A stretch of DNA of 40,000 nucleotides from an uncultured Candidatus Peribacteria bacterium (lineage in GTDB: Bacteria; Patescibacteriota; Gracilibacteria; BD1-5; UBA2023): the NCBI GenBank assembly GCA_964644075.1, contig CAZXUQ010000003.1, positions 38,166 through 78,165 of the forward strand, read 5' to 3'. The notes below the pieces were generated by a model. The model saw only the letters and a program-made list of their open reading frames with translations, was not told the origin of the DNA and made no database searches. How positions within the stretch are numbered: position 1 is the first letter of the stretch; each line of letters starts with the position of its first letter. Positions 4,673 through 37,056 of this stretch are shown here, piece after piece. The translations under genes and the position numbers were made by a program.

Positions 4673-4788
4673 AAAAGAGAAATTATAAAGTAACAGAAAT
4701 ACTCTAGCACTCTTTTCCTCTGAAAGCAAATTTTGGATGTTTTTTCTTTTCGACTGGCAAAAACTCTCTTTTTCGATACACTTTCGCC

Positions 4789-7700: not shown

Positions 7701-8697
7701 ACTCGCAAACAAAAAGGAAACGTCTCAGATGGGACTTTTTGATATGGGATGAGGAATTGACCAATGAAGCGTACATTTTTCTCTCGAACATGCCGAGCCA
7801 CAGTCTTTTGAAGATCGTATGAAGTGAGAAAAGGAGACGATCGGATACCCAGTTTCAGGGCATCCACTCGATGGCATCGAGGAGTATATCCGTACCAAGT
7901 CAAAAAATCTCTCTGCTGCTCTCGAACTCATGCGCTCAGATGACATCGATGAGGAAGTAGTCGTAGTAGACCAGCTTCCGTCACTCGAAGAAAAACCTGT
8001 ACCACTCTCTGCGGATGAACCACCGATCGAGTCCTATAGTGCTGACGAATGAGCATCACTCGAGGGTACCGAGGAAATAAACAACACCCCTCCCATCGAG
8101 GAAAAAGAAGAAATAGAAGAGACAGTATTTGCCCAGCTCATCGGTGTGATCAGCGAGGTGAGAAAAATGCAGACAAAATCCTGAAGCATGATGGCAGTTG
8201 CGACTGTCGAAAGTGTCGGTTTCGTCTTCCGTATCGTGATTTTCCCAAAGGAGTATGAAAAGTATGAATCGAAACTCGAAGAGGATATGATCGTCGTCGC
8301 CAATGGTCGAGTCCGCTATGATCGAGAAAAATGAGAGCTCTCACTCTTCCCTTCTACTCCATTTGGGAAGAAAAAAGTCATCGATGAAGCAGGAAGTGTA
8401 AAGTGTTTCTCGATCTCAGTATTTCGTGATATGGCGAGAGGGAGCTTACAGATGACAGATGAGAGACGAGAGGCTGGAACATGAGAAAAGCCAAATACCC
8501 AAACCACCAAATATACGATCGATATCCCAGCATTCTGGACCAAGGAAGACCTCCTCGATCTCAGAGACTATCTCGAGAAGTCAGAAGTCGGACTCACGCC
8601 AGTATGGATCCGTATCCATGGACTCGAGAAGGATACGAAATTTTCTATTGCCTCGGTCACGGAACTCGAAAAATGGCTGGAGACAAAATGAGTATAA
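4789..8697 (+). CDS. dnaE: DNA polymerase III alpha subunit
   Basis: Track ORFs starting at 4789, 5218, 5803, 6676 and 7267 are all in frame 1 and are separated only by TGA. I read the frame by hand through to TAA at 8695-8697. The product is 1302 aa with 19 in-frame TGA codons. Motifs: PHP start MSFVHLHTHTHYT, GPGRGSAAG, PDIDVDF, KMDFLGLRNL, FNKSHAACYA. Confidence 0.97.
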
Positions 8698-18222: not shown

Positions 18223-21200
18223 ATGTCATACAAAAATATATACTTTCGTCTCACAGCAGCTCTAGCGCTTCTCACATTTGTCTCGAATACGCTCAGTCCG
18301 ATCGTACTCACGAGTTCAGCGGTGGGCAATGTCTTTTATGTGGATTCTGTCTCCTGAGATGACAATAACTCTGGTACTGCAGATACTGCAGCATGGGCAT
18401 CCGTCTCGATGGTAAATGCCTCTATGGCAAGTGGGACGATACTCCCTGGTGATACGGTATATTTCCGTTGTGGAGACTCATGGTGAAGTGAGGATCTCAC
18501 TATCACGACGAATGGTATTACATTTGATCGATTTCAAAATGGTCTCGTCTGTGGAACTGGTACGCGTCCTGTAATTCGTAGTATCAGTGCCAATAGTATG
18601 TCAAATACGACGGTAAATGGACTTCAAATCAATGCGAGTATGTCATGAAGTGCCATCGATTTCACGAACTCAAGTAATGTCACCCTCTATGACAACGCTA
18701 TTTCCAATAGCTCAGGTTCATGTCTCTCTCTCGTCACAGGAAGTGGTATCACTCTCGATAGTAATGATTTTTCTCTCTGTAGTTATGCACTCAATGCTAT
18801 CGATATCGGTGGTTCTATCTCAAACAATACGTTTTCTGGTATGACTGCAGACGCTCTCCAGATACTATCAAGCCAATCTCTGAGTGTGAATAATAATACC
18901 TTTTCTTATCTCCAAAAATGAGCGATCGTCTTTGGTCAGGCTACGGTAGTATCACAAAATATCATATCAAATGTATGTCAGTGAACAGGTACAGGATGTA
19001 GCGCTATCCGGAATGAAGAATTTTCTCCTGCCAATACCTCATACCTCTCAGCTCGTGTGAGTGAAAATATCATCCAAAATGTGGGAAGTGGTATCACGAA
19101 TGGGAACTATGGTATTTCTGCTCGCAGTATCCGAGATCTCGAGATCGCAAACAATACTGTCAATAATGCTGAAGAATCACTCCATCTCGAGGATACCAAT
19201 AGTTTCAATATCCATAATAACACTTTGGTCATGCCACGAGCACGAGTGGTTCAAGTTATCCAAAATACCCCTGGAACAGTCGGAACGAATACTTTTCAGT
19301 CAAATACTATCCTCGGGAAAAACCCAGACTATCCATACATCGAAATGCGCGATGAGACAGTAGGTGGCACGATGGGAAGTTTCCTGAGCTTTAGCAGCAC
19401 GGATTTTTTCCCACTATTTAAACCAAATACTTCCTATATCCGAGAGGTAAAATACGGATGAGAGACGAGAGAATACGGAAAGGCAGAATTTTCTACACTT
19501 GATCCCACTGCAACCCAGTTCTCATATTTTGGCTACAAACCCTACTCGACTACAGGAAATCTCGTATGAGGAAACCAGGTGTGAAATGGAAACTTTTTAA
19601 CAAATACGGGTGGATGGACAGTATGAGCTGAGTCTGGTCCTACCCCTAATCTTTTGTATAATCCTTGAGGAAGTTATTCTGGTTGATCAGCTACAGTGAG
19701 TCCTGCTTGAGGATCACCTGATCGCATTTGGATTACAAATAATACAACTATTCCACTTACGGTATGACGTAATTACCAGATAACTGGATATGTGAAATCT
19801 GCATCAGGAAATATTAATCTCAGAGCATTTTTGCACTCTGCCAGTGATAAGAATATTGTATACTCTGATCGTATAGCTGAGACGTATGCAAGTGCTTCGG
19901 GAAGAACCTTCTCATTCTATCTCCAAGCTATGACATGAGCATCAGATGCTAACATCACTATCGAAACATCCAATCCCGATGTCGCCTATGAGATCGATGA
20001 AGTGAGCGTACAACGTGTAAATCCCCTCCTGAGAAATAATACAGCAAACGAGATACATATCATGCCTAACACTACTGCGAGCTCCCTCTCTCAGCCATGT
20101 CCTGGATGAGTGTGTAGTGAGTATGTAGATGAACTCAACATACCGATCTCATGGAATATTGCTATCCCTGCCTATCGTACTAAGATTGCATTTTGGAATA
20201 ATGATACAGCCAACATGCTGACACCACCAACGTGTACAGTCCTTCCTGATAATGGATCACTTCCTGCATGACAACCAGTAAATGTTACCTGGACAGCTAC
20301 TGACTCTCTCTCACAAATACTACACTACACTACCTATACAGGGTCAGTTACCTTGCCAGTTGCTTCTACATGAGTAGTGACATTTATCCCTTCAAATAGT
20401 GGATGAGCTATCGTGACGATATCTCTCGATACTCAAAATGATATATGACCAAAAACATGTAGTGCGAATGTCACTACCAACAACACTCCCCCACAGATTT
20501 TTACGAGCATATTTGCTGGTACAGAAGATGATGCACAAATCTCTGGTACGCTCAGTGGTGTCGATGTGAATCCTGGCGATTCTGTTATTTTTGAAATCAT
20601 TACACCTCCTTCCGTCAGTCAGTGAACACTCAATCTCGTAGATAGTACGACATGACAGACAGACTTTTATCCAAATCCTGACTTCTGTGGAACGGCGACA
20701 TTTGATTTTCGTGCGCGCGATCAATGGTTTAACTATGCTGATCCGATAACACAGTCGATCACTGTGGATTGTGTGAATGATACACCTTTTCTCAATAGTC
20801 CTACGAAATCTGCATCAGGCTATACAGCTATGGCTTCTCTTATAGATCTTATCGAGTGACCAAGTGGTGATTTCGATGATCCAGATGCTATATACCAGTG
20901 ACAAATCTATACAGTCAATTTTACCCAGCCAACAAATGGATCCGTGGTTCTCTGAGGTTCCGCTACGCAACTCCAATATACTTCCAATCTCGGATTTAGT
21001 GGTACTGATAGCTTTCAATACAGTATCACAGATCAGAGTGGAGCTACGACAGCCACTGGTACAATCAATGTTCTCGTGACGCGCTATAATAATCCACCAG
21101 TAGCTTACGGTACTTGAATTACGCTTCTTGAAGATTGATTTTTTTCATGATTTCTTTCTGGATCTGATCTTGATGGAGATCCTCTTACTTTTAGCCTCCT

Positions 21201-22863
21201 TAGTTGACCGACATTTGGTACTGCTAGTGTGTCTCCGTCAGGAAGTTTTACTTATACACCGAACCCTAACTTCAACTGAACGCTTGATGGTTTTGGGTTT
21301 CGAGTGAGTGATAATCAATGAGGAACTACATGAGGTTATATTAGTATAGACGTGACATCTGTTCCTGATGCTCCAGTAGCAGTAGCAGATAGTTTTACTC
21401 TCCCACAGGATACGATGACTTCCCTCCCCGTTATGGGAAATGATTCAGATGTAGATAGTAGTACGCTCACTCTGACATGATATACACAACCGACTCATGG
21501 TACTCTCGTCGTGAATGGCACATCCTTTGATTATACGCCAAACAGTGGATATGTAGGTTCTGACAGTTTCACATACCGTCTTGAAGATGATACGAGTCTC
21601 CTCTCATCACCAGTAACGGTCACTCTCACAGTCACTTCGACGAACTCTGCTCCGACGACTTCTGATATGAGCGTGTCTGTCAATGAAGACGGCGTGCTGA
21701 ATTCCACTCTTTCTGGAAGTGATCCAGATATGGATACTCTCACATACTCCATCAATACATTCCCAACACACGGGACACTTACACCTTCTTCTACTGGAGC
21801 ATTTCGCTATACACCAAACGCGAACTACTACGGAACGGATAGTTTTACATACCATGCGAGTGATGCTGCCCTGAGTTCTACCATCTCTACAGTCGCTATC
21901 ACGATCAATCCTGTAAACGATGCCCCAGTAGGAACTCCAGCAAGCTATAGTGTCACTCCGAATACGAACTCGAGTAGTGGAAATATTTTTACTGGGGTAG
22001 TTGTAGGGACTGATATCGATAGTGGTATCCTGACATTTACTGCGAGTATGATGCCAACACATGGTACACTGACTCTCGCCTCAAGTTGAGCCTTTACATA
22101 TACTCCAGCGCTCTGATATATAGGCTCTGATAGTTTCGCATTTATCGTCAGTGATGGCTCTCTCCAGAGTAGCGCTACGATAGTATCTTTTACTATCTGA
22201 TCAGCTCCAGTAGCCTCTCCTGGTCCATCTACTGGTCCTGGCGGAGGTGGTGGTGGCTGAGGCTGAGGCTGAGTATCTCTCCCCAATCCTGTAGTCACTC
22301 CGACGACAACTACAGGTACAGTGCAGCTCCCAGTGATACCAAAAAAACCAGATACAAAAACAGGTGCAACTACCAACACAGAAGATCCAGAGTTTAACTC
22401 TGCTCCAGAAATTCAAGCGCCACAGTTTGTCCTCTATGATCCTACGGGACTCCTTTCTCAGCTTATGCTGACAAATAGAGTACTTACTGCGAGCGGACTT
22501 TCCCCTATCTTCATCTCTCCTATAATCCAGATTACCCTCGCGCAAAAGGTATTTGGCGAAATACCAACTCTGATGTTAGATGACTTCGATGGTCCAGCGA
22601 TCCTCCGCAGTATGCTTCAGATGTTTGTCATGGAAGCAGATAACCAATGAGATGTGCTTGAGACATATTCGAATGCTATCGATTATGTAGGATGATTTGA
22701 TTTTAGTGACAGTAAGCGCATGAAAAATACCCAAAACTATATTTTGCGTATCCTCGAAAGAAATAGAAAACACTACGAACAGATCGTACAAAGAGATATT
22801 TTTTCTCGATTTGAAGGCGAACTCAATAGTGCCTCAGAAGAAATCCAAACAACGGATTTCTAG
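18223..22863 (+). CDS. Giant secreted/surface protein (1546 aa): signal/anchor, parallel beta-helix repeats, CBM4_9-like module, six cadherin-like (VCBS/tandem-95-type) repeats, poly-Gly/Thr linker and a C-terminal domain
   Basis: Frame 1 is open from ATG 18223 to TAG 22861-22863, checked line by line, and is interrupted only by 40 TGA codons. It joins track ORFs 19057, 21511 and 22321. The N-terminus is MSYKNIYFRLTAALALLTFVSNTL. N-rich beta-helix-like repeats occupy about 18300-19400. An NGNF...GGW...Y.I.GYVK...IDEVSV module occupies about 19560-20010. Confidence 0.85.
20479..22200 (+). repeat. Six tandem protein-level repeats of about 90-100 aa inside the giant CDS
   Basis: The recurring pattern is (N)DAP/NNPP...ED...GSD.D.D.LT.S....P.HGT......G.F.YTPN..Y.G.DSF.Y...D. 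The repeats are diverged at DNA level. Confidence 0.7.
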
Positions 22864-24961: not shown

Positions 24962-25933
24962 TTATTCTATGATTTTTCGCAGGTCATCTTTGAGTTCTCA
25001 GGTAAATCGATAATCTTTGCCAAAAAGATTGAATGAAAGTCTATATGCATGGAGCCACTGACGTGTGAGAGAAAAATTTTCGAGAGCTTCTTTGTTTGCT
25101 TTTTCATTGCCATAGACTTTATCCCCGGTTATCGGATAGCCGATCGAGGCGAGATGGACTCGGATCTGGTGGGTACGACCTGTGAGGAGATCGACTTCGA
25201 GAAGCGTATACTTATCGTGATAAAATCATTTAACGCGAAACTTTGTTTTAGCGATTTTTGGATTGATTGGGTCGATCGTCGTCATTTTTTTCCGATCGTA
25301 GTGATCTCTTCAGATAAAAGACTCGATATATCACTCTGGAGTTCATACCTTTCATACCACCAGTGCGAGATAGGTTTTCTCGATCGTTCGTTTTGCGATC
25401 TTGAGCTGGAGAGCATGCATGGATTTATCATTTTTGGCGATGATGATGAGTCCACTTGTGTCCTTGTCGAGACGATGGACGATACCTGGGCGCTCAACTC
25501 AGTTGATGATAGATGAATTTTTAGGCTCATCACTTCTCACCCCCAGATTCTTAAAATGATAGAGAAGCGCATTGACGAGACTTCCCTTCCTTCCCTCCTC
25601 TCCTGGAGTAGGATGCGTGTTCATCCCGGCATCTTTATTTATGATCGCGAAATCATCATTTTCGAATACGATATCGATCGGGAGATTCTCAGCGATGAGT
25701 TCCATATTTTCGATCTTCCATTCTATACGGATCTCATCCCCTCGATAGATTTTTTTATTTTTAGTGAAATTGGCACCATTACAAAATATTTTCCCTTCAT
25801 CAATCATTTTTTGGAGATAGCTTCGGGATTTTTCGGGAAAAAGAGCCGACAGGTAAGTGTCGGCTCTTCGGGTTTCTCGTGGGTCCGCGAGGACACAAAA
25901 GGATGAAATCTGGTAATTATTGGAGCTTCGCAT
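24962..25933 (-). CDS. rluD: RluA-family 23S rRNA pseudouridine synthase with an N-terminal S4 domain (RluD-like)
   Basis: The track ORF 25499-25933 continues through 7 TGA codons to TAA at 24962-24964. Motifs seen: [42 protein letters not shown]. Confidence 0.88.
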
Positions 25934-26373
25934 TATTGTATAACTTTTCTCTCGTAGTCACAGATCTCAGTCGCATCGAAAAATCGTGCGATTTCAGCCT
26001 GAGCGTTCTCTACAGAGTCAGAAGCGTGGATGAGGTTGTAGCGGATAGTCGTCGCGTAGTCAGCACGGACTGTACCCATGGCTGCCTGAGCTGGATCAGT
26101 TGCACCACAGAGCTGGCGCATACCATTCACAGCGTTGTCACCCTCGACGATCATAAACACGACAGGACCCATGGTCATATAGGCAACGATCTCTGGGTAA
26201 AACGGCTTACTCGTGAGGTGCCCGTAGTGTTCATCGAGTTTTGCTTGGCTAATTTTTGCCATCTTCATAGCGACGATCTTGAACCCACGGTTCTCGATAC
26301 GAGCTGTGACAGCACCGATGAGTCCTCGGTGTATGGTATCAGGTTTTAGGATGATGAGTGAACGCTCTGCCAT
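25933..26373 (-). CDS. ndk: Nucleoside diphosphate kinase
   Basis: Intact track ORF with ERSLIILKPD, GPVVFMIVEG and NLIHASDS. Its TAA shares one base with the rluD ATG. Confidence 0.95.
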   Translation of the reverse strand: MAERSLIILKPDTIHRGLIGAVTARIENRGFKIVAMKMAKISQAKLDEHYGHLTSKPFYPEIVAYMTMGPVVFMIVEGDNAVNGMRQLCGATDPAQAAMGTVRADYATTIRYNLIHASDSVENAQAEIARFFDATEICDYERKVIQ

Positions 26374-26449
26374 AAGAAAAAATATAAAATAATAAAGTTC
26401 GTGAACAAATTATAAAGAAAAACGAGAAAAAGCAAGAAAGAATATACTT

Positions 26450-27198
26450 TTACTTTTTATTAAAAACAACATCTAAGTCTCGTCATTGTACGAGAAGTTT
26501 GTCTATAAGAGGTAATTTATATATATCGGTAGGAACTACCCATTCTGCGATAACCTTGATGTGTGATCAAAATCGAGCTCTTATATACTCTACTGTTCTT
26601 ACGATTTTTTCATAGTCCAAGCTTTCACTCAATACCTCTCTTATTCATCTTCCATCGAGCTTTATAGCAAAAGGCTGTATTCAGTTTTTATCTAGTGCAT
26701 CAAGGTTCTTTTGGCTTTTGTTACCAGGAGTTTCATAGAGAGGGAGATCGTCTATGACAATCCTATCGTAACCCATTCGAACCATCTCAGCTATTGTTGC
26801 TATTGATTGTCCTGAGAGTTGTGCGTCCTCGATAACTTCGTAAGCGATACTTTTATCGATGTCTTTTTCTTGCAAAAACTGTACTAACTCTTTTGAAAAG
26901 TCTTGAGCTCTCAGGTTGATAAGTGATATTCATGGCGCTCAGTCATCTCCAATGAGATTATGGGCATGGGATACTACGCTTTTAGCAAGTTTGAGGGAGC
27001 GAGCCCTAGCTCTATTTTATTTAGATATCTTTCAGGACTTCAACCATTTACTCTCAGGAGAAATTCTCATCAAACAAGACGTAGCTCTTTCGATTCATTT
27101 ACGGTTCGTATCTCATAAATCCCCTCTCTTGCGTATGTTAAGGTATTTTTGGCTACAGGGGTATCAGCGCTTTCTCTGATATGGTTTTCTATTTCCAT
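26450..27198 (-). pseudogene. EAL-domain (c-di-GMP phosphodiesterase-like) gene split by a -1 frameshift
   Basis: Part 1 (27198-26974) reads MEIENH...ELRLVGGEFLLRVNGGSPERYLNKIELGLAPSNLLKA*. Part 2 is in the -1 frame, open from 27016 to TAA 26450-26452. It reads ...SLINLRAQDF...IAYEVIEDAQ...MVRMGYDRIVIDD...IKLDG...IKVIAEWV. Together the two parts cover an EAL-like domain in the canonical motif order (EFL for EAL, EVIE for EITE). Part 2 has no ATG. Confidence 0.5.
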
Positions 27199-27238
27199 TG
27201 ATAGTAATTATAAAGTATTTTCTATTATACAAACCAAT

Positions 27239-27260
27239 TCTTAAATATTTCTTAAATATT
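27239..27260. promoter_or_regulatory. Perfect 11-bp tandem direct repeat TCTTAAATATT x2 in the divergent intergenic region
   Basis: Positions 27239-27249 and 27250-27260 are identical. The repeat period is about one helical turn. Confidence 0.45.
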
Positions 27261-27270
27261 CGAGGGAAAA

Positions 27271-27288
27271 TGTTACAAAAATGTAACA
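27271..27288. promoter_or_regulatory. Perfect inverted repeat TGTTACA-aaaa-TGTAACA (operator-like)
   Basis: The half-sites are 27271-27277 and 27282-27288. The repeat lies 42 nt upstream of the ATG at 27330. Confidence 0.45.
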
Positions 27289-27329
27289 AGGCAAAATTAT
27301 CGTAGTAGAGTAACACTAACTTTCCTCCT

Positions 27330-28184
27330 ATGATATCCCCTCGTCCTGCTCTTACCATAGAACCTGTAAGCCCAAGAGATCTCAGAGAAAAAGATTTTTT
27401 TGAAATCAATGAAGTCAGTCGTGAGATGTGGTCAGATCCAAAAAGTCTCTGAGAACTGGTGGAGTGCAATAGCTGTCAAAAAATGTTCTCAAAAGCTGAT
27501 ATTTTCGGGCATGTGATATGAACACTCGCTACTGAGACTGTCTGAAAAATCATGCGAACTCTCTGAGTAGAGGAAAAAGATATACTCTGTCCATGTTGTT
27601 GATCTGCTACAACTATGATTTACTGACAGGCTCATGTCGAAAAAATCAAGAGAAGACTTCTTAAGAGTGTCGATGCATTTCTCGTCCTCTGTAAAAATAC
27701 AGATGGTGAAATTGTCGGATATGAGGAGTGATATGTCGACTCACTCGATGCTATATTTGATGGAGAATTTCACTATCACTATAGAGAAATAGGGGTCAAA
27801 GAAATACAGAGAAGAGTGATGAAAGTCCTCGGGTATAACCCGAAAGAACTTCTCGTCCTTTCATCGATAGGGTTTATGCCACGTTACCAGAGTGCGAGCT
27901 CACTTTTTCGTTTGCTTTCTACATTTGCACGTGCTCTCCCAGTGGCTCGTATGGACGATCTGCCAGGAATTACTGAGATCGATAAAAAAAGTAGTATGCA
28001 TAAGATTTCCGCGAAGTGTGGTGCTATCTCCCTAGGTATAGCAGATGATCCTTTCCTCAGCAAAAAAATCACAAACACCGGAGCACACTACGAGAGTGAT
28101 CTCATCGTCTATCGTGACCCTATACGACAGTATAAAACACAGTTTGATGCCGGTGGGAGGGAATTTCTACGGAAGGCTGCATAG
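27330..28184 (+). CDS. Hypothetical protein (284 aa) with a CxxC...CxCC zinc-ribbon insert and a GNAT-like C-terminal half
   Basis: ATG 27330 joins track ORF 27816-28184 through 7 TGA codons; the frame was checked line by line. The cysteine pairs are CNSC...CPCCG. LVLSSIGFMPRYQSASSLFRLLSTFARAL resembles GNAT motif A. Confidence 0.55.
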
Positions 28185-28243
28185 TGATTTACTTTGTACA
28201 AGTAGGAGATTTCTGTATACTCTTTGTATCTTTTATCTGATAT

Positions 28244-30295
28244 ATGGAATACTACAGTAGTCTCTACTTCCTTACTATTTGTTCCACTATTGCTCTCGGG
28301 GGTATTATTTTTTGGAAACAAAAAAACATATCTTGATACTACTTTCTTCTTTTTAGTATTTTTCTTTCATTGTGGTTTTTTGGATATTTTTTATTTTTTA
28401 GTAGGTTATTTACGGACACAATATTGCTTTTCATTTCTCGGATTACTTTTTTATTTGGGGTAGTAGGTTCTTATAGTCTCCTTTTCTTTGTGGTATTTTT
28501 TTGACTCAAAAAACCCGTCTATAGGCACTACTCACTCCCATTACTTTTTTATACAGTCCTCGCAGTGCTCTATGTAGGGACACCTTGGATCGTGAAATCT
28601 CTCGACTTCGATCCGACTCTGGGCGTCTATCGTGAACATACAGGAGTACTGTTTCCTTTACATGTACTTCTCTATTTTTTCTTTCTCATTGCATTTTGAG
28701 TTTTTGCATATAAATGAGTTCGTAAACTCCGTGGACTTTCTCGAGTTCGTCTCGAGCACATTCTTCTGGCGACTATTATTTTTGTCGTACTCCTACTGGT
28801 GCTACAGCTTGTTTTACCGCTCTTATTCAATATTTGGATACTCGAGAATGAGATCATATTCTTCTTTTTTATCTATATCACTTATATTGCTTTTGTTTTG
28901 AGGCGGTACTTTTTTCACCCCATCGGATATGGTATACGGAGATTTATCACTTTTCTCACAGCACTTATCTGATCTATTGTTCTCTACGATTTGACCAAAT
29001 TTTTTCTCGGAAAAACGCTTATTACTGAGTATAGTTACCTTGATGCGAGTTTTATTATTATCTTTTTTCTCATTACTTTTTGGTGACTTTCCAGGCTTTT
29101 TTTCCGTCGTGATATCGACGAAGATTTTCGTGAGTCGATTTTTCGTATCCAAAATACTCTCATATCTCGTAACAGCTTTCCTGAATTTGAAAAAACACTC
29201 AAAACAGCTTTTCATAAAGAGTTTAATATTCATCACGTAAGCATTGTCCGGTTTCTCTCTGAAAATAATGAATGAGCACATTTCCAAGAGTATTTTAATA
29301 ATAAAAAGAATCCTCCGTTTTATCTCAATGACATTGTTTTCCGTGAAGAAAAGAGGAAAAAAGTCTCTCTTGATGCCCTCTCAAAAGACGTCACTCTCAT
29401 CATCCCGATATCTGATACTACAGGTTGTTTTGCTCTCCTCGAGCTCTGAGGCAAATCTCTCTGAGATTTTTATACCAAAAAAGAAATCAGAATACTGACG
29501 AGTTTTTCCTATTTTCTCGCGGCTCATATACGTTATATCGATGCATATAGTGAACTGACTGATATATCTCGGGAGCTCGATAGGCGTGTCGATGAGAAAA
29601 CGATAGAGTACAATAATCTCATCAGCAAACAAAAAGAACTCATCAATATCATATCTCATGAGGTAAGGTCACCTCTCGGGAGCGCGATTTTTCAGGCGGA
29701 TAGTGTCATGGATGATCTCTCTCATACCAAAAAAGATGAAGCCATCAGAAAAGAGCTCAAACTCCTCGTGGACCAACTCCTTGTCACTTCGGATATCATC
29801 AATAAGATATTTTCTATCCAATATCTCGATACTGCAAGTATATCGCTTTTTCGTACTGATGTCGATCTCTCAGGTTGGCTCTGAGAGCTCATCGCTATCC
29901 AGTCTCGTATGCATGAAGAAGTTGATTTTTCCGCTGAGCTCGATCCTGTAGGATATATTTCTCTCGATAAAGTGCAGTTCTCACAGGTATTCTCCAATAT
30001 TTTGGCAAATGCTCTGAAATTTGCTCATAAAGAACATCCAAAAATTATCGTGATCCTGAGGAAAACACACGAGGGTATTTCTCTGCATTTTCATGACAAT
30101 GGTGATGGTTTCGCTGAGGATGAAGTGGATAAAATCTTCGATAAGTTTTACCGTGGGACATCGAGTCCTGTGGGTCTCGGTATGGGGCTCTACCTCTGTA
30201 AAAAAATCGTAGAAATGCATGGTGGTTCTATATCTGCTCATTCCTCTGGGCTCCTTTCTGGAGGGCATATAGAGATTACTCTCCCGACGACATAG
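28244..30295 (+). CDS. Sensor histidine kinase (about 683 aa): multi-pass N-terminal membrane domain, cytoplasmic linker (possibly GAF-like), HisKA, HATPase_c
   Basis: Frame 2 is open from 28135 to TAG 30293-30295 and is interrupted only by TGA codons, 10 of them after ATG 28244. The frame was checked line by line. The motifs are H-box ISHEVRSPL, N-box NILANALKF, G1 DNGDGF and G2 GLGMGLYL. An alternative GTG start at 28184 overlaps the upstream stop (TAGTG). Track ORFs 28224, 28632 and 29040 are off-frame. Confidence 0.85.
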
Positions 30296-30348
30296 TGAAG
30301 ATATTCTTTTTTATGAGGACAAAATAATCCCTCTTCACTTTACGGACT

Positions 30349-31050
30349 ATGAATATTCTCATTATCGAAGATGATGTATTTCTCGCGAAGCATATCGCTC
30401 GAGTATTCGAAAAAAAAGATGCCACACAGAAAGTAACCCTCCTGGATCGACCAGAAAACTTCTTGCGCGAATTTGCGAAAATCCGTACCTACGATATCGT
30501 TGTGACAGATTTGTGTTTTCCTGGACTCTCTCGTTTTTCGGGATTTGATGTGATAGAGATGATCCGCTCAGAGAAATACGATATTCCGATTATCGTTATT
30601 AGCGGACTTTCCGATATCAGTGATCTTGAGCGAGCATTTCTCTTCGGAGCCAATGATTATATTATCAAACCATTTCGCCTCCTCGAGCTCGATGTGCGTG
30701 CGACGAACTGGTACAAGCAATACTACCTCAAACACTGTGAGACACTGGGTGATATTTCTATCTATCATAGTCTCGAGTATCATATCAAGATCCATGAATT
30801 TTACTACAACTCACTCCATATCCCTCTTCCCAAAAAGTGAAAACATCTCCTTTTGTTATTTTTCACTCAGAGTGAGACGCTCCTCCATGAGTCTACTCTA
30901 GAAGAAAAACTCTATGGTGATCATGAGAGAATAGAGACCAGAAACATACGAGTAAATATTGCTCGCCTGAGAAAAATACTTTCTCGCTATGGTATAGATC
31001 ACTGGATCAGAAATGTGGCAGGGGAAGGATATATTTTCTCAGCAAAATAA
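30349..31050 (+). CDS. OmpR/PhoB-family response regulator (receiver plus winged-helix)
   Basis: Track ORFs 30349 and 30853 are in one frame, joined by one TGA. Receiver residues: IIEDD, VVTDLCFPG, IISGLSD, YIIKPF. The C-terminus is NIRVNIARLRKIL...VAGEGYIF. Confidence 0.88.
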
Positions 31051-31055
31051 TCTAC

Positions 31056-31203
31056 GGAAATGCGGAAAAACTGCGAATTTCTTTGTCAGAAAAAATTATT
31101 TCTCAGTCACTTACGTATTAGTAAACTCCTTTCGAAAAATTTTTTCTTCCTCGATCTTCTTGTTTTTGCACATTTCCAGTGTTCCCCTATTTTTTCTTAA
31201 ATG
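31056..31203 (+). repeat. Copy 2 of the roughly 140-nt conserved intergenic element (copy 1 at 13170-13310)
   Basis: See copy 1. This copy sits between the convergent response-regulator genes. Its 3' end overlaps the stop codon of the minus-strand regulator (31197-31199). Confidence 0.7.
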
Positions 31204-31859
31204 AGCATATATCCAGTTTTATAGAGAGTTTTTATCTTTACCTGATCTCAGAGCTTCTTTTTGATTTTGGATATGGTAGCATTGAGAGTATTGTCAGAAA
31301 AAAGCTCGAGTCGTATTTCTCACCATACGTATCCGATGAGCTCCTCTCGTTTTATGGTTTCTCACTTTTTCATGAGGAGGAGTTCGATGACGAGACTTTC
31401 TTTATGAGGCATAGGCACGTAGACCCCATCGACGTAGCACTCTTTTTTATCGGGATTATAGGAGATATTTTTATAGACGATAGCGAGAGTCTCTTTTCGT
31501 CATATAGGCCTCCTCAGGAGGGCTCGTATGCGCGCGAGAAACTCGTCTGGAACGAGTGGCTTGATCATATAGTCATCAGCTCAGATGTCGAGTCAGTGAG
31601 TGATATTGTCAGTGTCGCCATATCAGGATATGATCATGATAGGAGACTGGATATCTTTCTCTCGGAGCCACGCTATGATGTCCATACCACTCCCATCTCG
31701 CAGGGATATATCTATGACATAGAGGTCAGTATTGGTCGGAGGGTTAGCAAAAAATTTCTCACACGAATGATATATCACTACACTATATCCGTAGTTTTCG
31801 AGTTTTTTCCCGATTTTATTGGAAAGCAAGATTTCGTCGTCTATGATGACTATTTTCAT
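31197..31859 (-). CDS. OmpR/PhoB-family response regulator (orphan, 220 aa)
   Basis: The track ORF 31623-31859 continues through 8 TGA codons to TAA at 31197-31199. Receiver residues: IIDDE, YVIDISLRDGSG, MIISGYGD (Gly encoded by TGA), YMIKPL. The C-terminus is ...LIGYVWG......NTLNATISKIKKKL....TLYKTGYML. Confidence 0.85.
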
Positions 31860-31951
31860 ATAGTTTGGTGATTTTCATCATAGAGAACTTTTTTACCTTG
31901 TAAAGTCGACTCCAAAAATTGGGTCCAAAATGTAAGAAAAAAGTAACATTT

Positions 31952-32704
31952 CTACATCTTACAGACAGTATGTGTCATGTCAGCATGGAGTCCAGCAGCA
32001 CATGGTGTGCAAGACGGAGAACCTACCGTACTTACGCTATTTCCTCTACATGATTTACAGCTCCCACCACTACTAGAGTACGTACCTGCTCGACAGTCGA
32101 TGCAACTTTTTTTCTCTCTATCGGAGGTCTTTCCTGCAGGACATACACTACATATTGGAGATCCTTCGACAGATGTGATAGTTCCAGTCTTGCACGTTCG
32201 GCAAGATTTCCCATCAGCAGATGCGCTACCAGGACTACAGAGACGACACTCTCTTCTGGAAAGAGTAGACTCATATCAGGCACTACAACTCAGACAGCTT
32301 ACGGCACCAGCACTTGATGAGTACTGTCCTATACCACAGCTACGACAGCTTTTCCCATCTGATCAGTATGTTCCTGCTGGACAGGCGACACATGCAGTTC
32401 CGAGAGTATTTGGTTTCATGCCAGGAGCACATTTCTGACAGCTAACAGCTCACTCAGATGAATACTCTCACTCACTACATGGTGCGCATGACTTTCCTGA
32501 TGCGCTATAGGTTCCAGGCTTGCAGGCAGTACATGTGTTGTCTCTCCCTGGGTACATACCAGGAGCACATTCTATTGTTTTTTTCGTATATTTTGCCTCT
32601 CATGATACTACTATAGCCTGAATAGCATATGCCTGTGTCATGATGAGAGCGATGATCGATATGAGCGCACTGACGATCAGCCCGAGAGAAAAATATTTTT
32701 TCAT
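31952..32704 (-). CDS. Secreted cysteine-rich repeat protein (250 aa) with about 12 tandem CxxC-xx-G units, resembling the ephrin-receptor-like/GCC2_GCC3 repeat
   Basis: ATG 32704-32702 gives the signal peptide MKKYFSLGLIVSALISIIALIMTQAYA. Units of 15-17 aa follow: CTACKPGTYSASGKS, CAPCSEGEYSSEGAVS, CQKCAPGMKPNTLGTA, CVACPAGTYGSDGKS and so on. There are 5 in-frame TGA codons and TAG at 31952-31954. The frame was checked line by line. Confidence 0.8.
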
Positions 32705-32784
32705 AGAGAGAAAAGTTAGGTACCAGTATTATAGTTTCTAAAAAGAGAAATCAATAAGGAATACCTGGAAAAATAAAAAATACT

Positions 32785-33171
32785 ATGAAAAATATATTAG
32801 CTTTATTTTTTACTAGATACTATTACTCATCTGGCGATAAGGTCATATTTTTTCAGAATAAGTCACCTTTCCATGATGAACAAATATCAGTATTTGATTC
32901 ACATCTTAGAGATGGATCTGTATGTTCTCTCCATTCACAAGTCTCTATAGTTGCATTTATTGAATTTTTTCAAGAAAGTAAGTGTGCCACACAACGGTGA
33001 TTGCCATCGCTCAGTCAAGGATTTCATGAAATTGGACATACTACTACGCGAACATTTTCTATCACTTCACCTGAAGATATCCGTCTCATATACGTAGCAA
33101 CTGTAGGACCATGAACAGAGTGTTGGTCGCTATACAAATCACGAATAGGTATATTTTTTTCTATCATGTAA
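32785..33171 (+). CDS. Hypothetical protein (128 aa), weak call
   Basis: The track ORF 32785-33000 continues through 2 TGA codons to TAA at 33169-33171. I recognised no motifs. Confidence 0.3.
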
Positions 33172-33179
33172 GCAAAGTT

Positions 33180-35063
33180 TTATTTCTTCAGTATATTCAC
33201 AAATGTCTCACTCGGGATCGAGACTTTTCCGAACATTTTCATCTTTTTCTTTCCTTCTTTTTGTTTTTCGAGGAGTTTACGCTTTCGTGTTATATCGCCT
33301 CCGTAGAGCTTCGCAGTGACATCTTTCCTGAGGGCTGATATATCCTCACGAGCGACGACATCGTTGCCTACGACTGCCTGGAGGGCGATCGCGAACTGGG
33401 CTTTTGGGATAGACTCTTTGAGTTTCTCGCAGATGCGACCTCAGAGATAGCGAGTACGACCACGGTGTGCCATCATCGAGAAAGCATCGACCACGTCTCA
33501 GGCGACTCGGATATCCATTTTTACGATGTCATCCATCTTGTACGAGAGGGGTTCGTAGTGGAGGCTGGCATATCCTGATGAGAGGGACTTGAGATCGTCA
33601 TAGTAGTCACCGACGAGTTCACTCATCGGGATCTCGTAGTGGAGGACGACGCGAGATGCATCGAGGTACGTCTGGTTGCGAAATATCCCTCGGCGTTCCT
33701 GAGCGAGGTTCATGAGATTTCCGATATATTCATTGGGCGTGATCATCTCGACTTTGGCGATCGGCTCCTCGATATGGATATAGGTTCCAGGCTTCGGGAG
33801 ATCTTCAGGATTGGAGATCCAGAGATAGGTACAAGTACGTCCCTCGAACTCGGTGAGTTCAGGACTATTTCTCGGGTAATCGGCACACTTATCTCCTCCT
33901 ATGAGGACTTTGTATGTCACCTGTGGACTCGTGATGATGACGTCCATATCGTGCTCTCGCCAGAGCCGCTCCTTCACGATATCGAGGTGGAGGAGTCCGA
34001 GAAATCCACAGCGAAATCCATATCCGAGTGCGGGTGAAGCCTCATGTTCTGTGACGAGTGATGAGTCGTTGAGCTGGAGCTTCTCGATCGCATCTTTCAT
34101 CTTCGGGTATTCGTCGGTATCGATCGGATAAATCCCTGCGAAGATGTAGGGCGTGATACGCTTAAAACCCTTGATCGCATTTTTTGACTCAGGTCTTCAC
34201 GAAAATACGGTATCACCCACGCGAGCGTCAGCGATCGATTTGAGCCCTGTGACCACATATCCGATCTCCCCTTCATGGAGGATACCTGTCGGAGAGTATT
34301 TCGGACGGAAACATCCGACTTCGAGTGCTTCGATCTTGGCTCCTGTATTGATAAACTCGAGAGTATCTCATTTCTTGATCTCACCACTAAAAAGCTTCAA
34401 GTATACCACTACTCACTTGTATGGGTCATACTGTGAGTCAAAAATCAGAGCTTTCGTGATATCTTTCTCGTTGGCGTCAGATTCATGTGGGAGGAGACCC
34501 GATTCTCGATCGAGTTTCTTGGGTTCTGGGATACGGTCGACGACGGCGTCGAGGACAGCTTCGATATTGAGTCCGGTCTTTGCCGACACAGCGATGATAT
34601 CCTCTTTTTTGCAGCCGAGGAGATTGATGACTTCCTCACTTACTCGCTCTGGATCAGCCGATGGGAGATCGATTTTATTGAGCACGGGGATGATCGTGAG
34701 ATCATTTTCCATGGCGAGATAGACATTGGAAAGTGTCTGTGCCTCTATGCCCTGGCTCGCATCCACGACGAGGATTGCTCCCTCGACAGATGCGAGAGAT
34801 CGTGATACCTCATACTGGAAGTCGACGTGTCCTGGGGTGTCGATGAGATTGAGTTCGACTCACTCCCACTCCATGCGTACTGGAGTGAGTTTGATCGTGA
34901 TGCCACGCTCACGCTCGAGATCCATGTTATCGAGGGTCTGAGACTGGAGTTCACGTTTTTCGAGGGTACCAGTCACCTCCATGAGTCGATCAGCAAGGGT
35001 AGATTTCCCATGGTCGATATGAGCGATGATACAGAAATTGCGGATGGAAGAGGGTGTAGACAT
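33180..35063 (-). CDS. lepA: Elongation factor 4 (LepA)
   Basis: Track ORFs 34860-35063, 34413-34766 and 33498-34100 are in one frame, and the gaps contain only TGA. Motifs seen: [35 protein letters not shown]. The C-terminus is LepA-specific. TAA is at 33180-33182. Confidence 0.95.
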
Positions 35064-35065
35064 GG

Positions 35066-35332
35066 CTATTGTTGTGTAATGGTTGCCCCGGGATGATCGA
35101 CTAAGATTGCTATGATTTTTTGTTGTACGCTGAGTTCGACATCGCTCTCGGTGACAAATACTAAGTGAAAGTTTCCATTTGTATAATCAGGAGAATTTTC
35201 ACTTGGTTGGTATCGTTGTTCAATGCGAATGATACTACCACCGACAGTTTTGCTTATTGTGGATACAAGTTGTTGTTTGGTCTGACCAGTAAGAGCTCAT
35301 CACTGACCAATCGGATAATTTACTGCTAACAT
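35066..35332 (-). CDS. Small hypothetical protein (88 aa) immediately upstream of lepA
   Basis: ATG 35332-35330 runs to TAG 35066-35068, 2 nt before the lepA ATG. It contains a tandem TGA-TGA at 35297-35302. Confidence 0.4.
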
Positions 35333-35746: not shown

Positions 35747-36376
35747 ATGTTCAATCAAAAACTTCTTTTCCTTTTTGCGATTTATATCGCTGCGATTTTC
35801 GCGTCCAATCTCCTCGGTATGAAGACGATGCCATTTTTCTTCGGGACACATCTTTCTGTGGCGGTGTTTTTTATGCCGATACTCTTTCTCACGACGGATA
35901 TCGTCTGAGTTCTCTATGGGAAACAAATATCTCAAAAATTCGTCACTGCTGGTACGGTCGCACTCCTCTTTTTCCTTCTTGCGAACTTTCTCGCTAATGC
36001 ACTTCCCTGGTCTCCGGCGACATTTTCTCGTATCGGGACTGCATATGATGAGGTTTTTGCACTCTCGCTTCGTATGGGGATAGCGTCGCTTGCTGCATTC
36101 TTTTTTTCGGAGTATGTTGATGTGGCTGTCTTCTTTTTTGTGAAGAAATTCACTTCCAATTTTTTTGTCAGATCGACACTTTCCAATATAGTCTCTCAAG
36201 CGATTGATACTGCTGTCTTCATGACGATCGCGTTTATATGAGTATTTTCTCCTGAAAAGATCATCATGATGGCACTTCCCTGGTGGATATATAAAGTGCT
36301 CTGATGAGTTCTCTATACACCGATTTCTTATTTTATCCTCTCACTCTTTTTACGAACATGATCGTCACACCGATAA
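35747..36376 (+). CDS. yhhQ: Queuosine-precursor transporter YhhQ (DUF165/VUT family)
   Basis: ATG 35747. The sequence PILFLTTDIVGVLYGKQISQKFV, with at least 6 TM helices, matches the YhhQ pattern. The frame was checked line by line. There are 5 in-frame TGA codons, including a tandem pair at 36302-36307. TAA is at 36374-36376. Confidence 0.75.
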
Positions 36377-37056
36377 AAACTCGTATCTTCCGTGAATGAG
36401 AAGATCTTCTTGCATTTATCGAAGAATATCTACCCACTTTCTATGACGGAGATATCCTCGTCATCACATCCAAAATCGTCGCACTATCAGAGTCACGAAC
36501 ATTTGTCGCACACACAGAAGAAGAAAAACTTAAAGTAATCGAGCGAGAGAGTAGCTGGCATGCTCGAACCAAGTATGTTCACCTCACGATCCATGATCGT
36601 ATGCCGATGGCAAATGCTGGTATCGATGAATCCAACGGTGATGGAAAGTGTATCATGCTTCCGAGAGACTCCTATGAAAGTGCCTACCAGATATGGCATA
36701 CTCTTCGGGAAAAATACACTCTTGCAAATCTTGGCATTATCATCACAGACTCACATACTGTCCCTTTTCGTAAAGGGACAACAGGGGTTTCGCTCGGACA
36801 TATGGGATTCGAGTGAGTAAAAGACTATATCGGCAAACCTGATATTTTTGGGCGGCCTTTTGCTTTTTCTCGGGCTAATATCGTCGATGCTCTCGCCACA
36901 TCCGCTGTCCATACTATGGGAGAGTGAGATGAATGTCAGCCACTCGCGATCATAAAAAATCCTCTCGTCACATGGAGTGAAGAGAGGCAAACGGGAGATG
37001 ATCTCATCATCGATCCAGAGGATGATATGTATGGGCCGTTATTTATGCGCAACTAG
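36358..37056 (+). CDS. CofE-like protein (F420-0:gamma-glutamyl ligase family, PF01996)
   Basis: ATG 36358 joins track ORF 36601-36816. Motifs seen: GDILVITSKIVA, ANAGIDESNG, IIITDSHTVPFRKGTTGVSLGHMGF. There are 3 in-frame TGA codons and TAG at 37054-37056. Confidence 0.75.

What the first reader, a model, noticed from the sequence alone, without database searches (positions are those of the whole stretch)
31952..32704. Secreted CxxC-repeat protein with a eukaryote-type ephrin-receptor-like/GCC2_GCC3 pattern next to an orphan response regulator
After a clear signal peptide, the mature 220-odd residues consist almost entirely of about 12 tandem units, C-x2-C-x2-G-x-[YS]-x5-8. There are 26 cysteines.

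This spacing, C..C..G.Y.s..g...C..C, is characteristic of the ephrin-receptor-like/GCC2_GCC3 repeat and of protist variant surface proteins. It is uncommon in bacteria.

The gene sits directly upstream of, and co-oriented with, the orphan OmpR-type regulator at 31197-31859. The antisense track ORF 31977-32438 masks it in a naive annotation. It could be a host-mimicking or adhesion factor, or a metal or redox sensor feeding the regulator.
Basis: partly seen in the sequence, partly recalled or inferred. Interest (0 to 1): 0.7.

Follow-up and report, generated by a model that had tools for sequence, protein, structure and literature searches.

The report
Secreted cysteine-ladder repeat protein, Gracilibacteria
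This is a real gene of an uncultured Gracilibacteria bacterium (which reads TGA as glycine) for a small exported protein made of 13 cysteine-bridged hairpin modules, a fold best known from eukaryotic surface proteins. The same domain occurs in other bacteria, and nothing ties the gene to the neighbouring regulator.

Summary
On the minus strand, 31952-32704 encodes a 250-aa protein once TGA is read as Gly (code 25). It has an N-terminal signal-like segment, 26 Cys and 12 CxxC motifs, which form 13 modules of C-x2-G-x8-10-C-x2.

It passes Pfam Ephrin_rec_like (55 bits against a cut-off of 23, E 6e-15). It matches the Chlamydomonas mastigoneme protein Mst1 by sequence (E 8e-25). A confident AF2 model of residues 144-250 (pLDDT 91) also matches Mst1 by fold (TM 0.77, rmsd 2.1 A). 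Four of the five in-frame TGA codons sit at conserved Gly positions of the repeat. The antisense ORF has no family hit and scores worse on codon usage.

- **Orthologues:** no close homologue or orthologue was found. The gene lies in a variable lepA-ndk interval.
- **Regulator link:** the 'orphan' regulator sits next to a histidine kinase and a second regulator. Its only orthologue found lacks the Cys gene upstream.
- **Taxonomic range:** the domain is mostly eukaryotic among named hits, but it recurs in ordinary bacteria. Examples are a family of at least 11 genes in one MAG, pilin fusions and a protein with a T9SS tail.

Most likely it is an exported, disulfide-laddered rod that serves as a surface or adhesive element. 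It is a new member of a known kind, of modest interest.

The parts
31952..32704 (-). Gene for the 250-aa Cys-repeat protein (code 25; stop TAG at 31952-31954)
   Evidence: Translation. Pfam Ephrin_rec_like 55.3 bits (cut-off 23.1), TNFR_ELAPOR1_6th 55.4 bits (cut-off 33.2), NCD3G 40.1 bits (cut-off 38.9). PDB sequence match to Mst1, E 8.3e-25. Best codon score of the six frames.
32624..32704 (-). Signal-peptide-like N-terminus, residues 1-27 (MKKY, hydrophobic core F5-M22, AYA|IQ)
   Evidence: By inspection and hydropathy: it is the only hydrophobic segment of the protein, with a 19-residue window mean of 2.26. There is no lipobox Cys, no pilin G|F..E motif and no C-terminal anchor. Cleavage was not tested with a predictor.
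31961..32569 (-). Thirteen tandem modules C-x2-G-x8-10-C-x2 (C46 to C248), giving 26 Cys
   Evidence: AF2 model of residues 144-250: pLDDT 91, made only of short paired strands. Foldseek best match is mastigoneme Mst1 8wa2: TMq 0.77, rmsd 2.1 A, 36% identity over 101 columns.
32276..32602 (-). Span holding the five in-frame TGA (Gly) codons: 32600-32602, 32468-32470, 32450-32452, 32363-32365, 32276-32278 (residues 35, 79, 85, 114, 143)
   Evidence: One search shows the stops and one search places them. Residues 79 and 143 fall on the module's near-invariant C-x2-G glycine. Residues 85 and 114 fall on the second, semi-conserved Gly before the closing Cys. This supports both code 25 and the sense frame.
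31970..32719 (+). Antisense open frame (249 aa under code 25; 153 aa at 31977-32438 under code 11). Not a gene.
   Evidence: No Pfam hit. Codon score -0.30 against -0.03 for the sense frame. The frame stays open because code 25 has only two stop codons, and the sense protein has few Leu codons whose complement would give TAA or TAG (the second point is my inference, not tested).
32728..32754 (-). Possible promoter of the Cys gene: TTGATT, 15 nt, TATAAT, ending 23 nt before the ATG
   Evidence: Read by eye. The 15-nt spacer lies outside the 16-18 nt range of the scan, so one search did not list it. Consensus resemblance only.
31197..31859 (-). Downstream co-oriented OmpR-type response regulator (RR2), 92 bp after the Cys gene
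   Evidence: Response_reg 65 bits and Trans_reg_C 46 bits. A promoter-like site, TTTACA-16-TATGAT at 31904-31877, lies in the gap. The 70%-identical orthologue in L018 has a different upstream gene. It is listed as context, not as a shown functional partner.
28244..31050 (+). Histidine kinase (28244-30295) and second OmpR-type regulator RR1 (30349-31050), convergent with RR2
   Evidence: HATPase_c 75 bits and HisKA 22.8 bits (below its 26.9-bit cut-off) for the kinase. Response_reg and Trans_reg_C for RR1. The kinase has about 8-9 hydrophobic segments within residues 5-287, with loops of at most about 20 residues.
26374..33179 (.). Variable interval between ndk (25933-26373) and lepA (33180-35063), which holds the Cys gene, the two-component genes and two unassigned ORFs
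   Evidence: In other Gracilibacteria the lepA-ndk gap ranges from 81 bp (L004) to about 5.1 kb (L010), with different contents and no Cys gene. GC is 0.34-0.47 here, with only the window over the Cys gene above 0.42, against about 0.50 in lepA.

Best explanation
**Organism and code (shown).** The window comes from a Candidatus Gracilibacteria genome that decodes TGA as glycine.

**What the gene encodes.** 31952-32704(-) is a real gene. Its product is a short N-terminal export signal followed by 13 back-to-back two-stranded beta-hairpin modules of the Ephrin_rec_like kind and nothing else. The gene, the family and the fold of residues 144-250 are shown. The export signal rests on inspection only.

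**How it most likely works (inferred).**
- The Sec system exports the protein and the signal is cut after AYA27.
- The 26 cysteines form 13 disulfides that staple successive hairpins into a stiff, thin rod. The solved homologue Mst1 has such a disulfide ladder with rungs about 11 A apart. By that analogy the rod would be roughly 14 nm long.
- The rod acts outside the cell as a structural or adhesive surface element of a host-dependent bacterium. Because it has no recognisable wall or membrane anchor, it would be released, held by protein contacts, or held by an uncleaved signal.

**Genomic status.** It is a lineage-specific accessory gene in a variable lepA-ndk interval. It is not a conserved partner of the neighbouring regulator.
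For: - **Code 25 and taxon:** in-frame TGA codons occur at conserved Gly positions of the regulator and in long housekeeping genes. LepA is 83-91% identical to LepA of Gracilibacteria MAGs.
- **Family:** Pfam Ephrin_rec_like E 5.6e-15 and TNFR_ELAPOR1_6th E 5.9e-15, both above their cut-offs. PDB sequence matches are Mst1 E 8.3e-25, ELAPOR1 E 1.8e-7 and EphB2 E 0.007.
- **Fold:** AF2 pLDDT is 91.1. The best Foldseek match is Mst1 (TMq 0.77, rmsd 2.1 A), followed by ELAPOR1, OX40/4-1BB, the CaSR Cys-rich domain and the EphA2 Cys-rich domain.
- **Disulfide ladder in Mst1:** the ladder is regular at about 11 A, and DTT affected the filaments (PMC10602792).
- **Native to a code-25 genome:** four of the five TGA codons fall on repeat-conserved Gly positions.
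- **Export:** the protein has one N-terminal hydrophobic segment, an AXA site and an even Cys count.
- **Accessory status:** no orthologue turned up in the GTDB scan or in 27 Gracilibacteria lepA neighbourhoods. The interval is variable.
- **Bacterial precedents:** small signal-peptide-plus-repeat proteins of this family occur in clearly bacterial contexts.
- **Lifestyle:** Gracilibacteria are described as host-dependent, and surface repeat proteins have been proposed as attachment factors in them (PMC6851277; PMC11452946, abstract).
Against: - There is no expression, localisation or binding evidence.
- Only residues 144-250 could be modelled, because the tool rejects code-25 translations.
- No thiol-oxidase (Dsb or VKOR-like) gene was recognised among the window proteins scanned. 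Whether this organism can oxidise 13 disulfides is unknown.
- No anchor motif is present, so 'surface' is not shown.
- No orthologue exists to show purifying selection. The locus scans use exact peptide words and can miss relatives below roughly 60-70% identity.
- The sense frame's codon score is only marginally better than neutral (-0.03).
Confidence: 0.7

Rival explanations
1. The protein is an extracellular sensor or co-sensor (metal, redox or ligand-binding) that feeds the adjacent two-component genes. The Cys gene and RR2 form one operon.
For: The two genes are co-oriented with only a 92-bp gap, and no terminator-like site was found between them on that strand. A kinase and two regulators share the same variable interval. 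In Mst1 the disulfide ladder responds to reductant.
Against: The only RR2 orthologue found (70% identity, L018) has a pyrB-like gene upstream, not a Cys gene. A promoter-like site sits in the gap, so RR2 could be transcribed on its own. The kinase has no extracytoplasmic loop longer than about 20 residues to receive a protein ligand. The Cys protein has no domain other than the repeats. No known two-component accessory family matched it (NCBIfam: no hit).
Confidence: 0.1
2. The gene was acquired from a eukaryote (protist or alga) or from a giant virus. It serves to mimic or bind a eukaryotic host surface.
For: Named homologues are mostly eukaryotic: Naegleria, Breviolum, Triparma, Hemiselmis, fungi and Branchiostoma. 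The best solved match is an algal ciliary hair protein. The gene lies in a variable, slightly GC-poorer interval.
Against: No homologue exceeds 49% identity (49% over only 21% of the query; 46% at best; most are about 35%). That is the level of the repeat consensus, so no donor can be named. Bacterial homologues are as similar as eukaryotic ones (P0016 at 47%, P0194 at 40%). The gene uses TGA = Gly at conserved positions, so it has been in, or came from, a code-25 lineage. No viral structure matches significantly. Where hosts are known, Gracilibacteria hosts are bacteria (abstracts).
Confidence: 0.1
3. The CxxC pairs bind zinc or iron (tandem zinc ribbons). The protein is a cytoplasmic or membrane-tethered metal-binding protein.
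For: A CxxC-x11-13-CxxC spacing is also seen in zinc ribbons. There is a weak DZR_2 hit (E 0.14).
Against: DZR_2 scores 12.5 bits against a 27-bit cut-off. The strong matches are all to extracellular disulfide-bonded domains. The protein has an N-terminal export signal. The single cysteines at the two ends (C46, C248) fit a ladder of 13 modules, not 6 four-Cys sites.
Confidence: 0.03
4. The frame is not a gene. The opposite-strand ORF is the real gene, or the region is non-coding.
For: Under code 11 the antisense ORF is the longest one here. Under code 25 the antisense frame is open along the whole region. No orthologue exists to show conservation.
Against: The antisense product has no family hit and a worse codon score. 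The sense product matches a curated family at E 6e-15 and a solved protein at E 8e-25, and it folds confidently. TGA codons fall on conserved Gly positions. Long antisense open frames are common in this window (lepA and dnaE antisense).
Confidence: 0.02

Closest known systems
Pfam PF07699 Ephrin_rec_like (formerly GCC2_GCC3): tandem Cys-rich repeat of extracellular proteins
   Same: The protein scores above the curated cut-off (55.3 against 23.1 bits, 4 stretches). It has the same C-x2-C-x2-G-x-Y ... C-x2-C spacing and the same hairpin-ladder fold.
   Different: The protein consists of the repeats alone, behind a signal peptide. It has no other domain, no transmembrane tail and is only 250 aa. 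It is encoded in a code-25 CPR bacterium, whereas most named members are eukaryotic and many are very large multi-domain proteins.
Chlamydomonas mastigoneme protein Mst1 (PDB 8tx1, 8wa2), repeat tandem at about residues 1200-1850
   Same: It is the best solved match by sequence (E 8.3e-25) and by structure (TMq 0.77, rmsd 2.1 A, 36% identity). The matched part is the disulfide-ladder rod.
   Different: Mst1 has about 1,900-2,000 residues, including nine Ig-like domains and a polyproline-II tail, and it polymerises into a ciliary hair. None of those parts is present here, and there is no evidence of polymerisation.
Small secreted Ephrin_rec_like proteins of bacterial MAGs (e.g. GCA_024692925.1 K6F04_01110 = P0016, with at least 10 paralogues; P0201)
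   Same: They are bacterial, 200-270 aa, and start with an N-terminal signal-like segment followed directly by the same repeats. They sit among housekeeping genes. They are uncharacterised.
   Different: P0016 and P0019 have only 4-5 modules followed by an unrelated C-terminal region of about 90 residues. That MAG uses the standard code and carries a multigene family, whereas here a single copy was seen in 40 kb. Identity is 33-47% over partial length.
ELAPOR1 (PDB 9vqm) and the TNF-receptor / EphA2 / CaSR cysteine-rich domains
   Same: They share the disulfide-rich hairpin architecture. ELAPOR1 matches at E 1.8e-7 by sequence, and all of them appear in the fold search. Pfam TNFR_ELAPOR1_6th scores 55.4 bits.
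   Different: All of these are parts of eukaryotic membrane receptors with ligand-binding and signalling domains that are absent here. TNFR_c6 itself is below its cut-off (14 against 29.4 bits).

Membership tests
Pfam PF07699 Ephrin_rec_like (GCC2_GCC3) repeat family | Sequence score at or above the family's gathering threshold | tested here: met
   55.3 bits against 23.1, E 5.6e-15, 4 matched stretches.
Pfam PF07699 Ephrin_rec_like (GCC2_GCC3) repeat family | Regular Cys spacing, C-x2-C-x2-G-x-[YF]-x(n)-C-x2-C, repeated in tandem | tested here: met
   There are 12 CxxC motifs at 15-17-residue intervals. The Gly is present in 11 of the 12 units after a CxxC, and an aromatic Tyr in 4 of the 12.
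Pfam PF07699 Ephrin_rec_like (GCC2_GCC3) repeat family | Elongated beta-hairpin fold, as in solved members (Mst1 tandem, EphA2 Cys-rich domain) | tested here: met
   AF2 pLDDT 91 for residues 144-250. Foldseek to Mst1: TMq 0.77, rmsd 2.1 A. The EphA2 and EphA4 Cys-rich domains appear lower in the list. Residues 1-143 were not modelled.
Pfam PF07699 Ephrin_rec_like (GCC2_GCC3) repeat family | Cysteines paired as disulfides (extracellular, oxidised) | not testable with these tools
   Model coordinates are not returned, so Cys-Cys distances could not be measured. Pairing is inferred from homologues, the even Cys count and the signal peptide.
Eph receptor tyrosine kinases / ephrin signalling | Ephrin-binding domain, fibronectin III repeats, transmembrane helix and kinase domain | tested here: not met
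   Pfam finds only Cys-repeat families. There is no hydrophobic segment after residue 30. The protein shares one domain type with Eph receptors, nothing more.
TNF receptor superfamily (PF00020 TNFR_c6) | Score above the gathering threshold for the TNFR Cys-rich module | tested here: not met
   14 bits against 29.4, E 0.07. Structural matches to OX40 and 4-1BB are weak (TMq 0.32-0.36).
Giardia variant-specific surface proteins (PF03302 VSP) | Score above threshold, plus a C-terminal transmembrane helix with a conserved cytoplasmic tail (the latter from my knowledge) | tested here: not met
   14.5 bits against 31.4, E 0.017. The protein ends ...THTVCKM with no hydrophobic C-terminus.
Zinc-ribbon proteins (e.g. 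PF18912 DZR_2) | Score above threshold; four-Cys metal sites | tested here: not met
   12.5 bits against 27, E 0.14. Metal binding itself cannot be tested here.
Accessory extracellular component of a two-component system | Conserved genetic linkage with the regulator or kinase across genomes | tested here: not met
   The RR2 orthologue in L018 is preceded by a pyrB-like gene. No Cys gene occurs in 27 related lepA neighbourhoods. This rests on one orthologue, so the power of the test is low.
Sec-exported protein with a signal peptidase I site | Basic n-region, hydrophobic h-region and an A-x-A cleavage motif | tested here: inconclusive
   MKKY / FSLGLIVSALISIIALIM / TQAYA|IQ by inspection and hydropathy. 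No dedicated predictor was available. An uncleaved signal anchor is not excluded.

The most novel reading that the evidence does not exclude
A code-25 CPR bacterium has taken up, and fully recoded, a eukaryote-type disulfide-ladder surface repeat. It uses the repeat as a free-standing rod to bind or imitate the surface of a eukaryotic (algal or protist) partner, possibly under control of the accessory two-component genes in the same variable interval. That would point to a Gracilibacteria-eukaryote association, and to oxidative protein folding in a lineage where none has been described.
Probability: 0.08. Interest if true: 0.6.

Novelty: new member of a known kind. Interest (0 to 1): 0.3.

Why it matters
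**Annotation.** This gene disappears under the standard genetic code. Code 11 breaks it into fragments and offers a spurious 153-aa antisense ORF in its place. It was absent from the 15-billion-protein collection as a code-25 product.

**Biology.** It adds a compact, repeat-only member of a mostly eukaryotic extracellular domain family to the Gracilibacteria, whose cell-surface proteins are the main candidates for host attachment. The side finding that the domain recurs in other bacteria has not, as far as my literature searches show, been described. It appears there as multigene families, pilin fusions and a protein with a T9SS tail.

**Limits.** The protein has no orthologues, no demonstrated partner and no unusual mechanism, so its importance is modest.

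Tried and rejected
- **Orthologue searches.** Three searches found nothing close.
  - The word-indexed protein search gave only 27-49% identity hits.
  - The GTDB genome scan with the protein found nothing.
  - The metagenome scan found one 29% hit on a 1.6-kb contig.
- **Synteny via LepA.** This retrieved 27 Gracilibacteria loci, but none has a CxxC-rich ORF or a tblastn hit to the protein.
- **Exact look-ups.**
  - The code-25 products of the Cys gene, RR2 and lepA, and a 60-residue N-terminal fragment of Ndk, are not in the collection.
  - Look-ups of code-11 fragments around the gene failed.
  - The one exception is the RR1 fragment. It gave a 1,174-bp Logan contig from SRR11567520 that is 100% identical to window 30253-31426 but stops short of the Cys gene. 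No paper mentions that run.
- **Other scans.**
  - NCBIfam has no model for the protein.
  - Rfam and tRNA scans of the window were empty.
  - There is no DNA tandem repeat in the gene.
- **Readings rejected.** Antisense gene, zinc-ribbon protein, membership of TNFR, VSP or Eph receptors, pilin (no G|F..E motif) and lipoprotein (no lipobox Cys).
Full report
**1. What is in the sequence**

Read on the minus strand, 31952-32704 gives 250 codons with five in-frame TGA and a TAG stop. The downstream regulator (31197-31859, minus strand) has seven in-frame TGA. They fall where response regulators carry glycine ('IIS*YG', 'DI*ADDY').

Re-translating the whole window with table 25 joins fragments into full-length housekeeping genes:
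- dnaE: 1302 aa, 19 TGA.
- lepA: 627 aa, 6 TGA.
- A 1546-aa surface protein: 40 TGA.

None of these has an internal TAA or TAG.

LepA is 83-91% identical to LepA of MAGs labelled Candidatus Gracilibacteria (a few are labelled Peribacteria or Patescibacteria) and only about 50-55% identical to LepA of other phyla. The window is therefore from a Gracilibacteria genome that uses code 25, and the finding has to be read in that code.

**2. Checking the observation**

With TGA = Gly the protein has 26 Cys and 12 CxxC motifs at 15-17-residue intervals. The natural unit is C-x2-G-x8-10-C-x2. Thirteen such modules run from C46 to C248.

The N-terminus (MKKY, an 18-residue hydrophobic core, then AYA|IQ) is the only hydrophobic stretch. 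There is no C-terminal anchor, lipobox or pilin motif. The gene has no DNA-level tandem repeat, so the modules are old and diverged.

The '[YS]' position is looser than stated (Tyr in only 4 of the 12 units after a CxxC, Ser in none). The antisense ORF 31977-32438 is real as an ORF and is the longest one under code 11. Under code 25 the antisense frame is open over 31970-32719.

**3. Which strand codes**

Several lines favour the sense strand:
- The sense product hits curated families at E about 1e-15, while the antisense product hits nothing.
- The sense frame has the best codon-usage score of the six frames, -0.03 to -0.05 against -0.22 to -0.78. The margin is small because the amino-acid composition is odd.
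- Four of the five TGA codons lie on Gly positions that the repeat itself conserves: residues 79 and 143 on the C-x2-G glycine, and 85 and 114 on the second Gly before the closing Cys.

The last point also argues that the gene is at home in a code-25 genome and is not a contaminant.

Long antisense open frames are common in this window, as expected with only two stop codons. Examples are 691 aa opposite lepA and 1075 aa opposite dnaE.

**4. What the protein is**

*Pfam*

| Family | Bits | Cut-off | Result |
|---|---|---|---|
| Ephrin_rec_like | 55.3 | 23.1 | pass |
| TNFR_ELAPOR1_6th | 55.4 | 33.2 | pass |
| NCD3G | 40.1 | 38.9 | borderline pass |
| TNFR_c6 | 14 | 29.4 | fail |
| VSP | 14.5 | 31.4 | fail |
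| DZR_2 | 12.5 | 27 | fail |

*Solved structures, by sequence*
- Chlamydomonas mastigoneme protein Mst1: E 8.3e-25, five stretches.
- ELAPOR1: E 1.8e-7.
- EphB2: E 0.007.

Mean pLDDT was 91.1 and pTM 0.74. The model contains only short paired strands.

*Fold search, Foldseek against the PDB.* The best match is Mst1 (8wa2): TMq 0.77, rmsd 2.1 A, 36% identity over 101 columns. ELAPOR1, OX40/4-1BB, the CaSR Cys-rich domain and the EphA2/EphA4 Cys-rich domains follow.

*What is known about Mst1.* The Mst1 paper describes the matched tandem as resembling the ephrin-receptor Cys-rich domain. It reports a regular ladder of disulfides about 11 A apart that stiffens the filament, and it tested filament stability with DTT (PMC10602792).

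*Inference.* By analogy, 13 modules with 13 possible disulfides would give a rod of roughly 14 nm. The pairing and the length are inferred, because I could not inspect model coordinates.

**5. Relatives**

- **No close relative.** The word-indexed search gave 26 hits at 27-49% identity. An exhaustive phmmer run with the 107-residue fragment found 4,755 cluster representatives at E <= 1e-3. None was above 46% identity, and the top ones are giant proteins of 4,000-7,900 aa with dozens of repeats.
- **Named members are mostly eukaryotic.** Those I looked up are Naegleria, Breviolum and Triparma. Others are Hemiselmis, Baffinella, fungi, Branchiostoma and an oyster.
- **The domain is not foreign to bacteria.** A profile search gave several bacterial cases:
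  - At least 11 paralogues of 190-270 aa in one MAG (GCA_024692925.1). There they sit beside rubrerythrin, topoisomerase I, seryl-tRNA synthetase, fabD/fabG-type, dnaX and PBP5-type genes.
  - A Lewinellaceae protein on a 460-kb contig.
  - Three proteins with a type IV pilin N-methylation motif.
  - One protein with a T9SS sorting tail.

  Two further examples lie among def/fmt/truA/obg-type genes and among genes for ribosomal proteins L19 and S16 and a trmD-type methyltransferase.
- **No prokaryotic annotation model.** NCBIfam has none for the protein.
- **Literature.** I found no paper on the domain in bacteria or on Cys-rich proteins in Gracilibacteria.

**6. Genomic setting**

The order in the window is:
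- ndk (25933-26373, minus)
- two unassigned ORFs
- a polytopic histidine kinase (28244-30295, plus)
- RR1 (30349-31050, plus)
- RR2 (31197-31859, minus)
- the Cys gene (31952-32704, minus)
- a 475-bp AT-rich gap
- lepA (33180-35063, minus)

In other Gracilibacteria, lepA and ndk (followed by a conserved 323-aa ORF, 24962-25933 in the window, not annotated here) are also neighbours. The gap between them ranges from 81 bp to about 5 kb and holds different genes (a 502-504-aa ORF, a membrane protein, a pyrB-like gene and others) and no Cys-repeat ORF. The interval here is somewhat GC-poorer than the core genes. So the Cys gene and the two-component genes are accessory cargo of a variable spot.

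**7. The proposed link to the regulator**

Four observations weaken the link:
- RR2 is not far from a kinase, so 'orphan' is only formally true.
- The one RR2 orthologue recovered (70% identity over the 134 residues before the locus ends, L018) follows a pyrB-like gene.
- A promoter-like site (TTTACA-16-TATGAT) lies in the 92-bp gap between the Cys gene and RR2. This is a consensus match only.
- The kinase's N-terminal 290 residues are about 8-9 hydrophobic segments with loops of at most about 20 residues, so there is no obvious docking domain for a secreted protein.

None of this disproves co-transcription, but nothing supports a sensory role.

**8. Most likely mechanism and rivals**

Best reading: the protein is Sec-exported and disulfide-stapled into a rigid rod. 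It acts as an extracellular structural or adhesive element in a host-dependent bacterium. Gracilibacteria are described as host-dependent, and surface repeat proteins have been proposed as attachment factors in them (PMC6851277; PMC11452946, abstract).

- Shown: the gene, the family and the fold of the C-terminal half.
- By inspection only: the export signal.
- Inferred: disulfide pairing, location and adhesion.

| Rival reading | Probability |
|---|---|
| Sensor feeding RR2 | about 0.1 |
| Recent eukaryote-derived mimic | about 0.1 |
| Zinc-ribbon metal binder | about 0.03 |
| Not a gene, or antisense gene | about 0.02 |

**9. Verdict**

The family assignment is right. The regulatory and host-mimicry ideas are unsupported. 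The protein is a new, compact, repeat-only member of a known domain family in an unusual host lineage. It is invisible to code-11 annotation and absent as such from the large protein collection. Interest is modest (0.3).

Noticed in passing
window 1-40000: The whole window uses genetic code 25 (TGA = Gly). Because only TAA and TAG stop translation, very long spurious antisense frames appear, e.g. 33111-35186(+) of 691 aa opposite lepA and 4636-7863(-) of 1075 aa opposite dnaE. No tRNA gene and no Rfam family match was found in the 40 kb.
   Followed up: partly
window 18223-22863 (+): A 1546-aa protein with an N-terminal hydrophobic segment. It carries a right-handed beta-helix/NosD region, a CBM_4_9 carbohydrate-binding module (24.9 bits, just under its 25.9-bit cut-off), five Big_9/cadherin-like repeats and a run of 13 Gly. 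It is probably a large surface adhesin and a more obvious attachment candidate than the Cys protein.
   Followed up: partly
window 26374-33179; L002-L023: The lepA-ndk interval is a variable spot in Gracilibacteria. It ranges from 81 bp (L004) to about 5.1 kb (L010) and 6.8 kb (this window), with different gene contents. No integrase or flanking repeat was looked for.
   Followed up: partly
L082, L083 (GCA_024692925.1) and proteins P0016, P0019, P0193-P0198, P0234, P0247, P0251: One ordinary, standard-code bacterial MAG (GC about 0.34) carries at least 11 paralogous small secreted Ephrin_rec_like proteins scattered among housekeeping genes. This is an uncharacterised bacterial multigene family of a 'eukaryotic' domain.
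   Followed up: partly
P0207 (L084/L085), P0254 (L088), P0255, P0216: Some bacterial proteins fuse Ephrin_rec_like repeats to a type IV pilin N-methylation motif (PF07963). One fuses them to a T9SS sorting tail (PF18962). L088 also holds a second pilin-like gene.
   Followed up: no
window 27330-28184 (+) and 26450-26785 (-): Two ORFs of the variable interval (284 aa and 111 aa) have no family above threshold. The 284-aa one has CxxC and CPCC motifs with only faint zinc-ribbon hits.
   Followed up: partly
window 35747-37056 (+): A Vut_1 (putative vitamin/queuosine-precursor transporter) gene overlaps, by 73 nt, the start of an F420-0:gamma-glutamyl ligase-like gene (PF01996). That is an odd family for a CPR genome.
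   Followed up: no
L086 = window 30253-31426: A 1,174-bp Logan contig from run SRR11567520 is 100% identical to the window, so the same population is present in that public sample. The habitat is not known to me.
   Followed up: partly
proteins P0027-P0031: The strongest matches in the exhaustive search are single predicted proteins of 4,500-7,900 aa with 26-66 matched stretches, on metagenome contigs of 14-47 kb. Their origin (bacterial, protist or giant virus) could not be determined.
   Followed up: no
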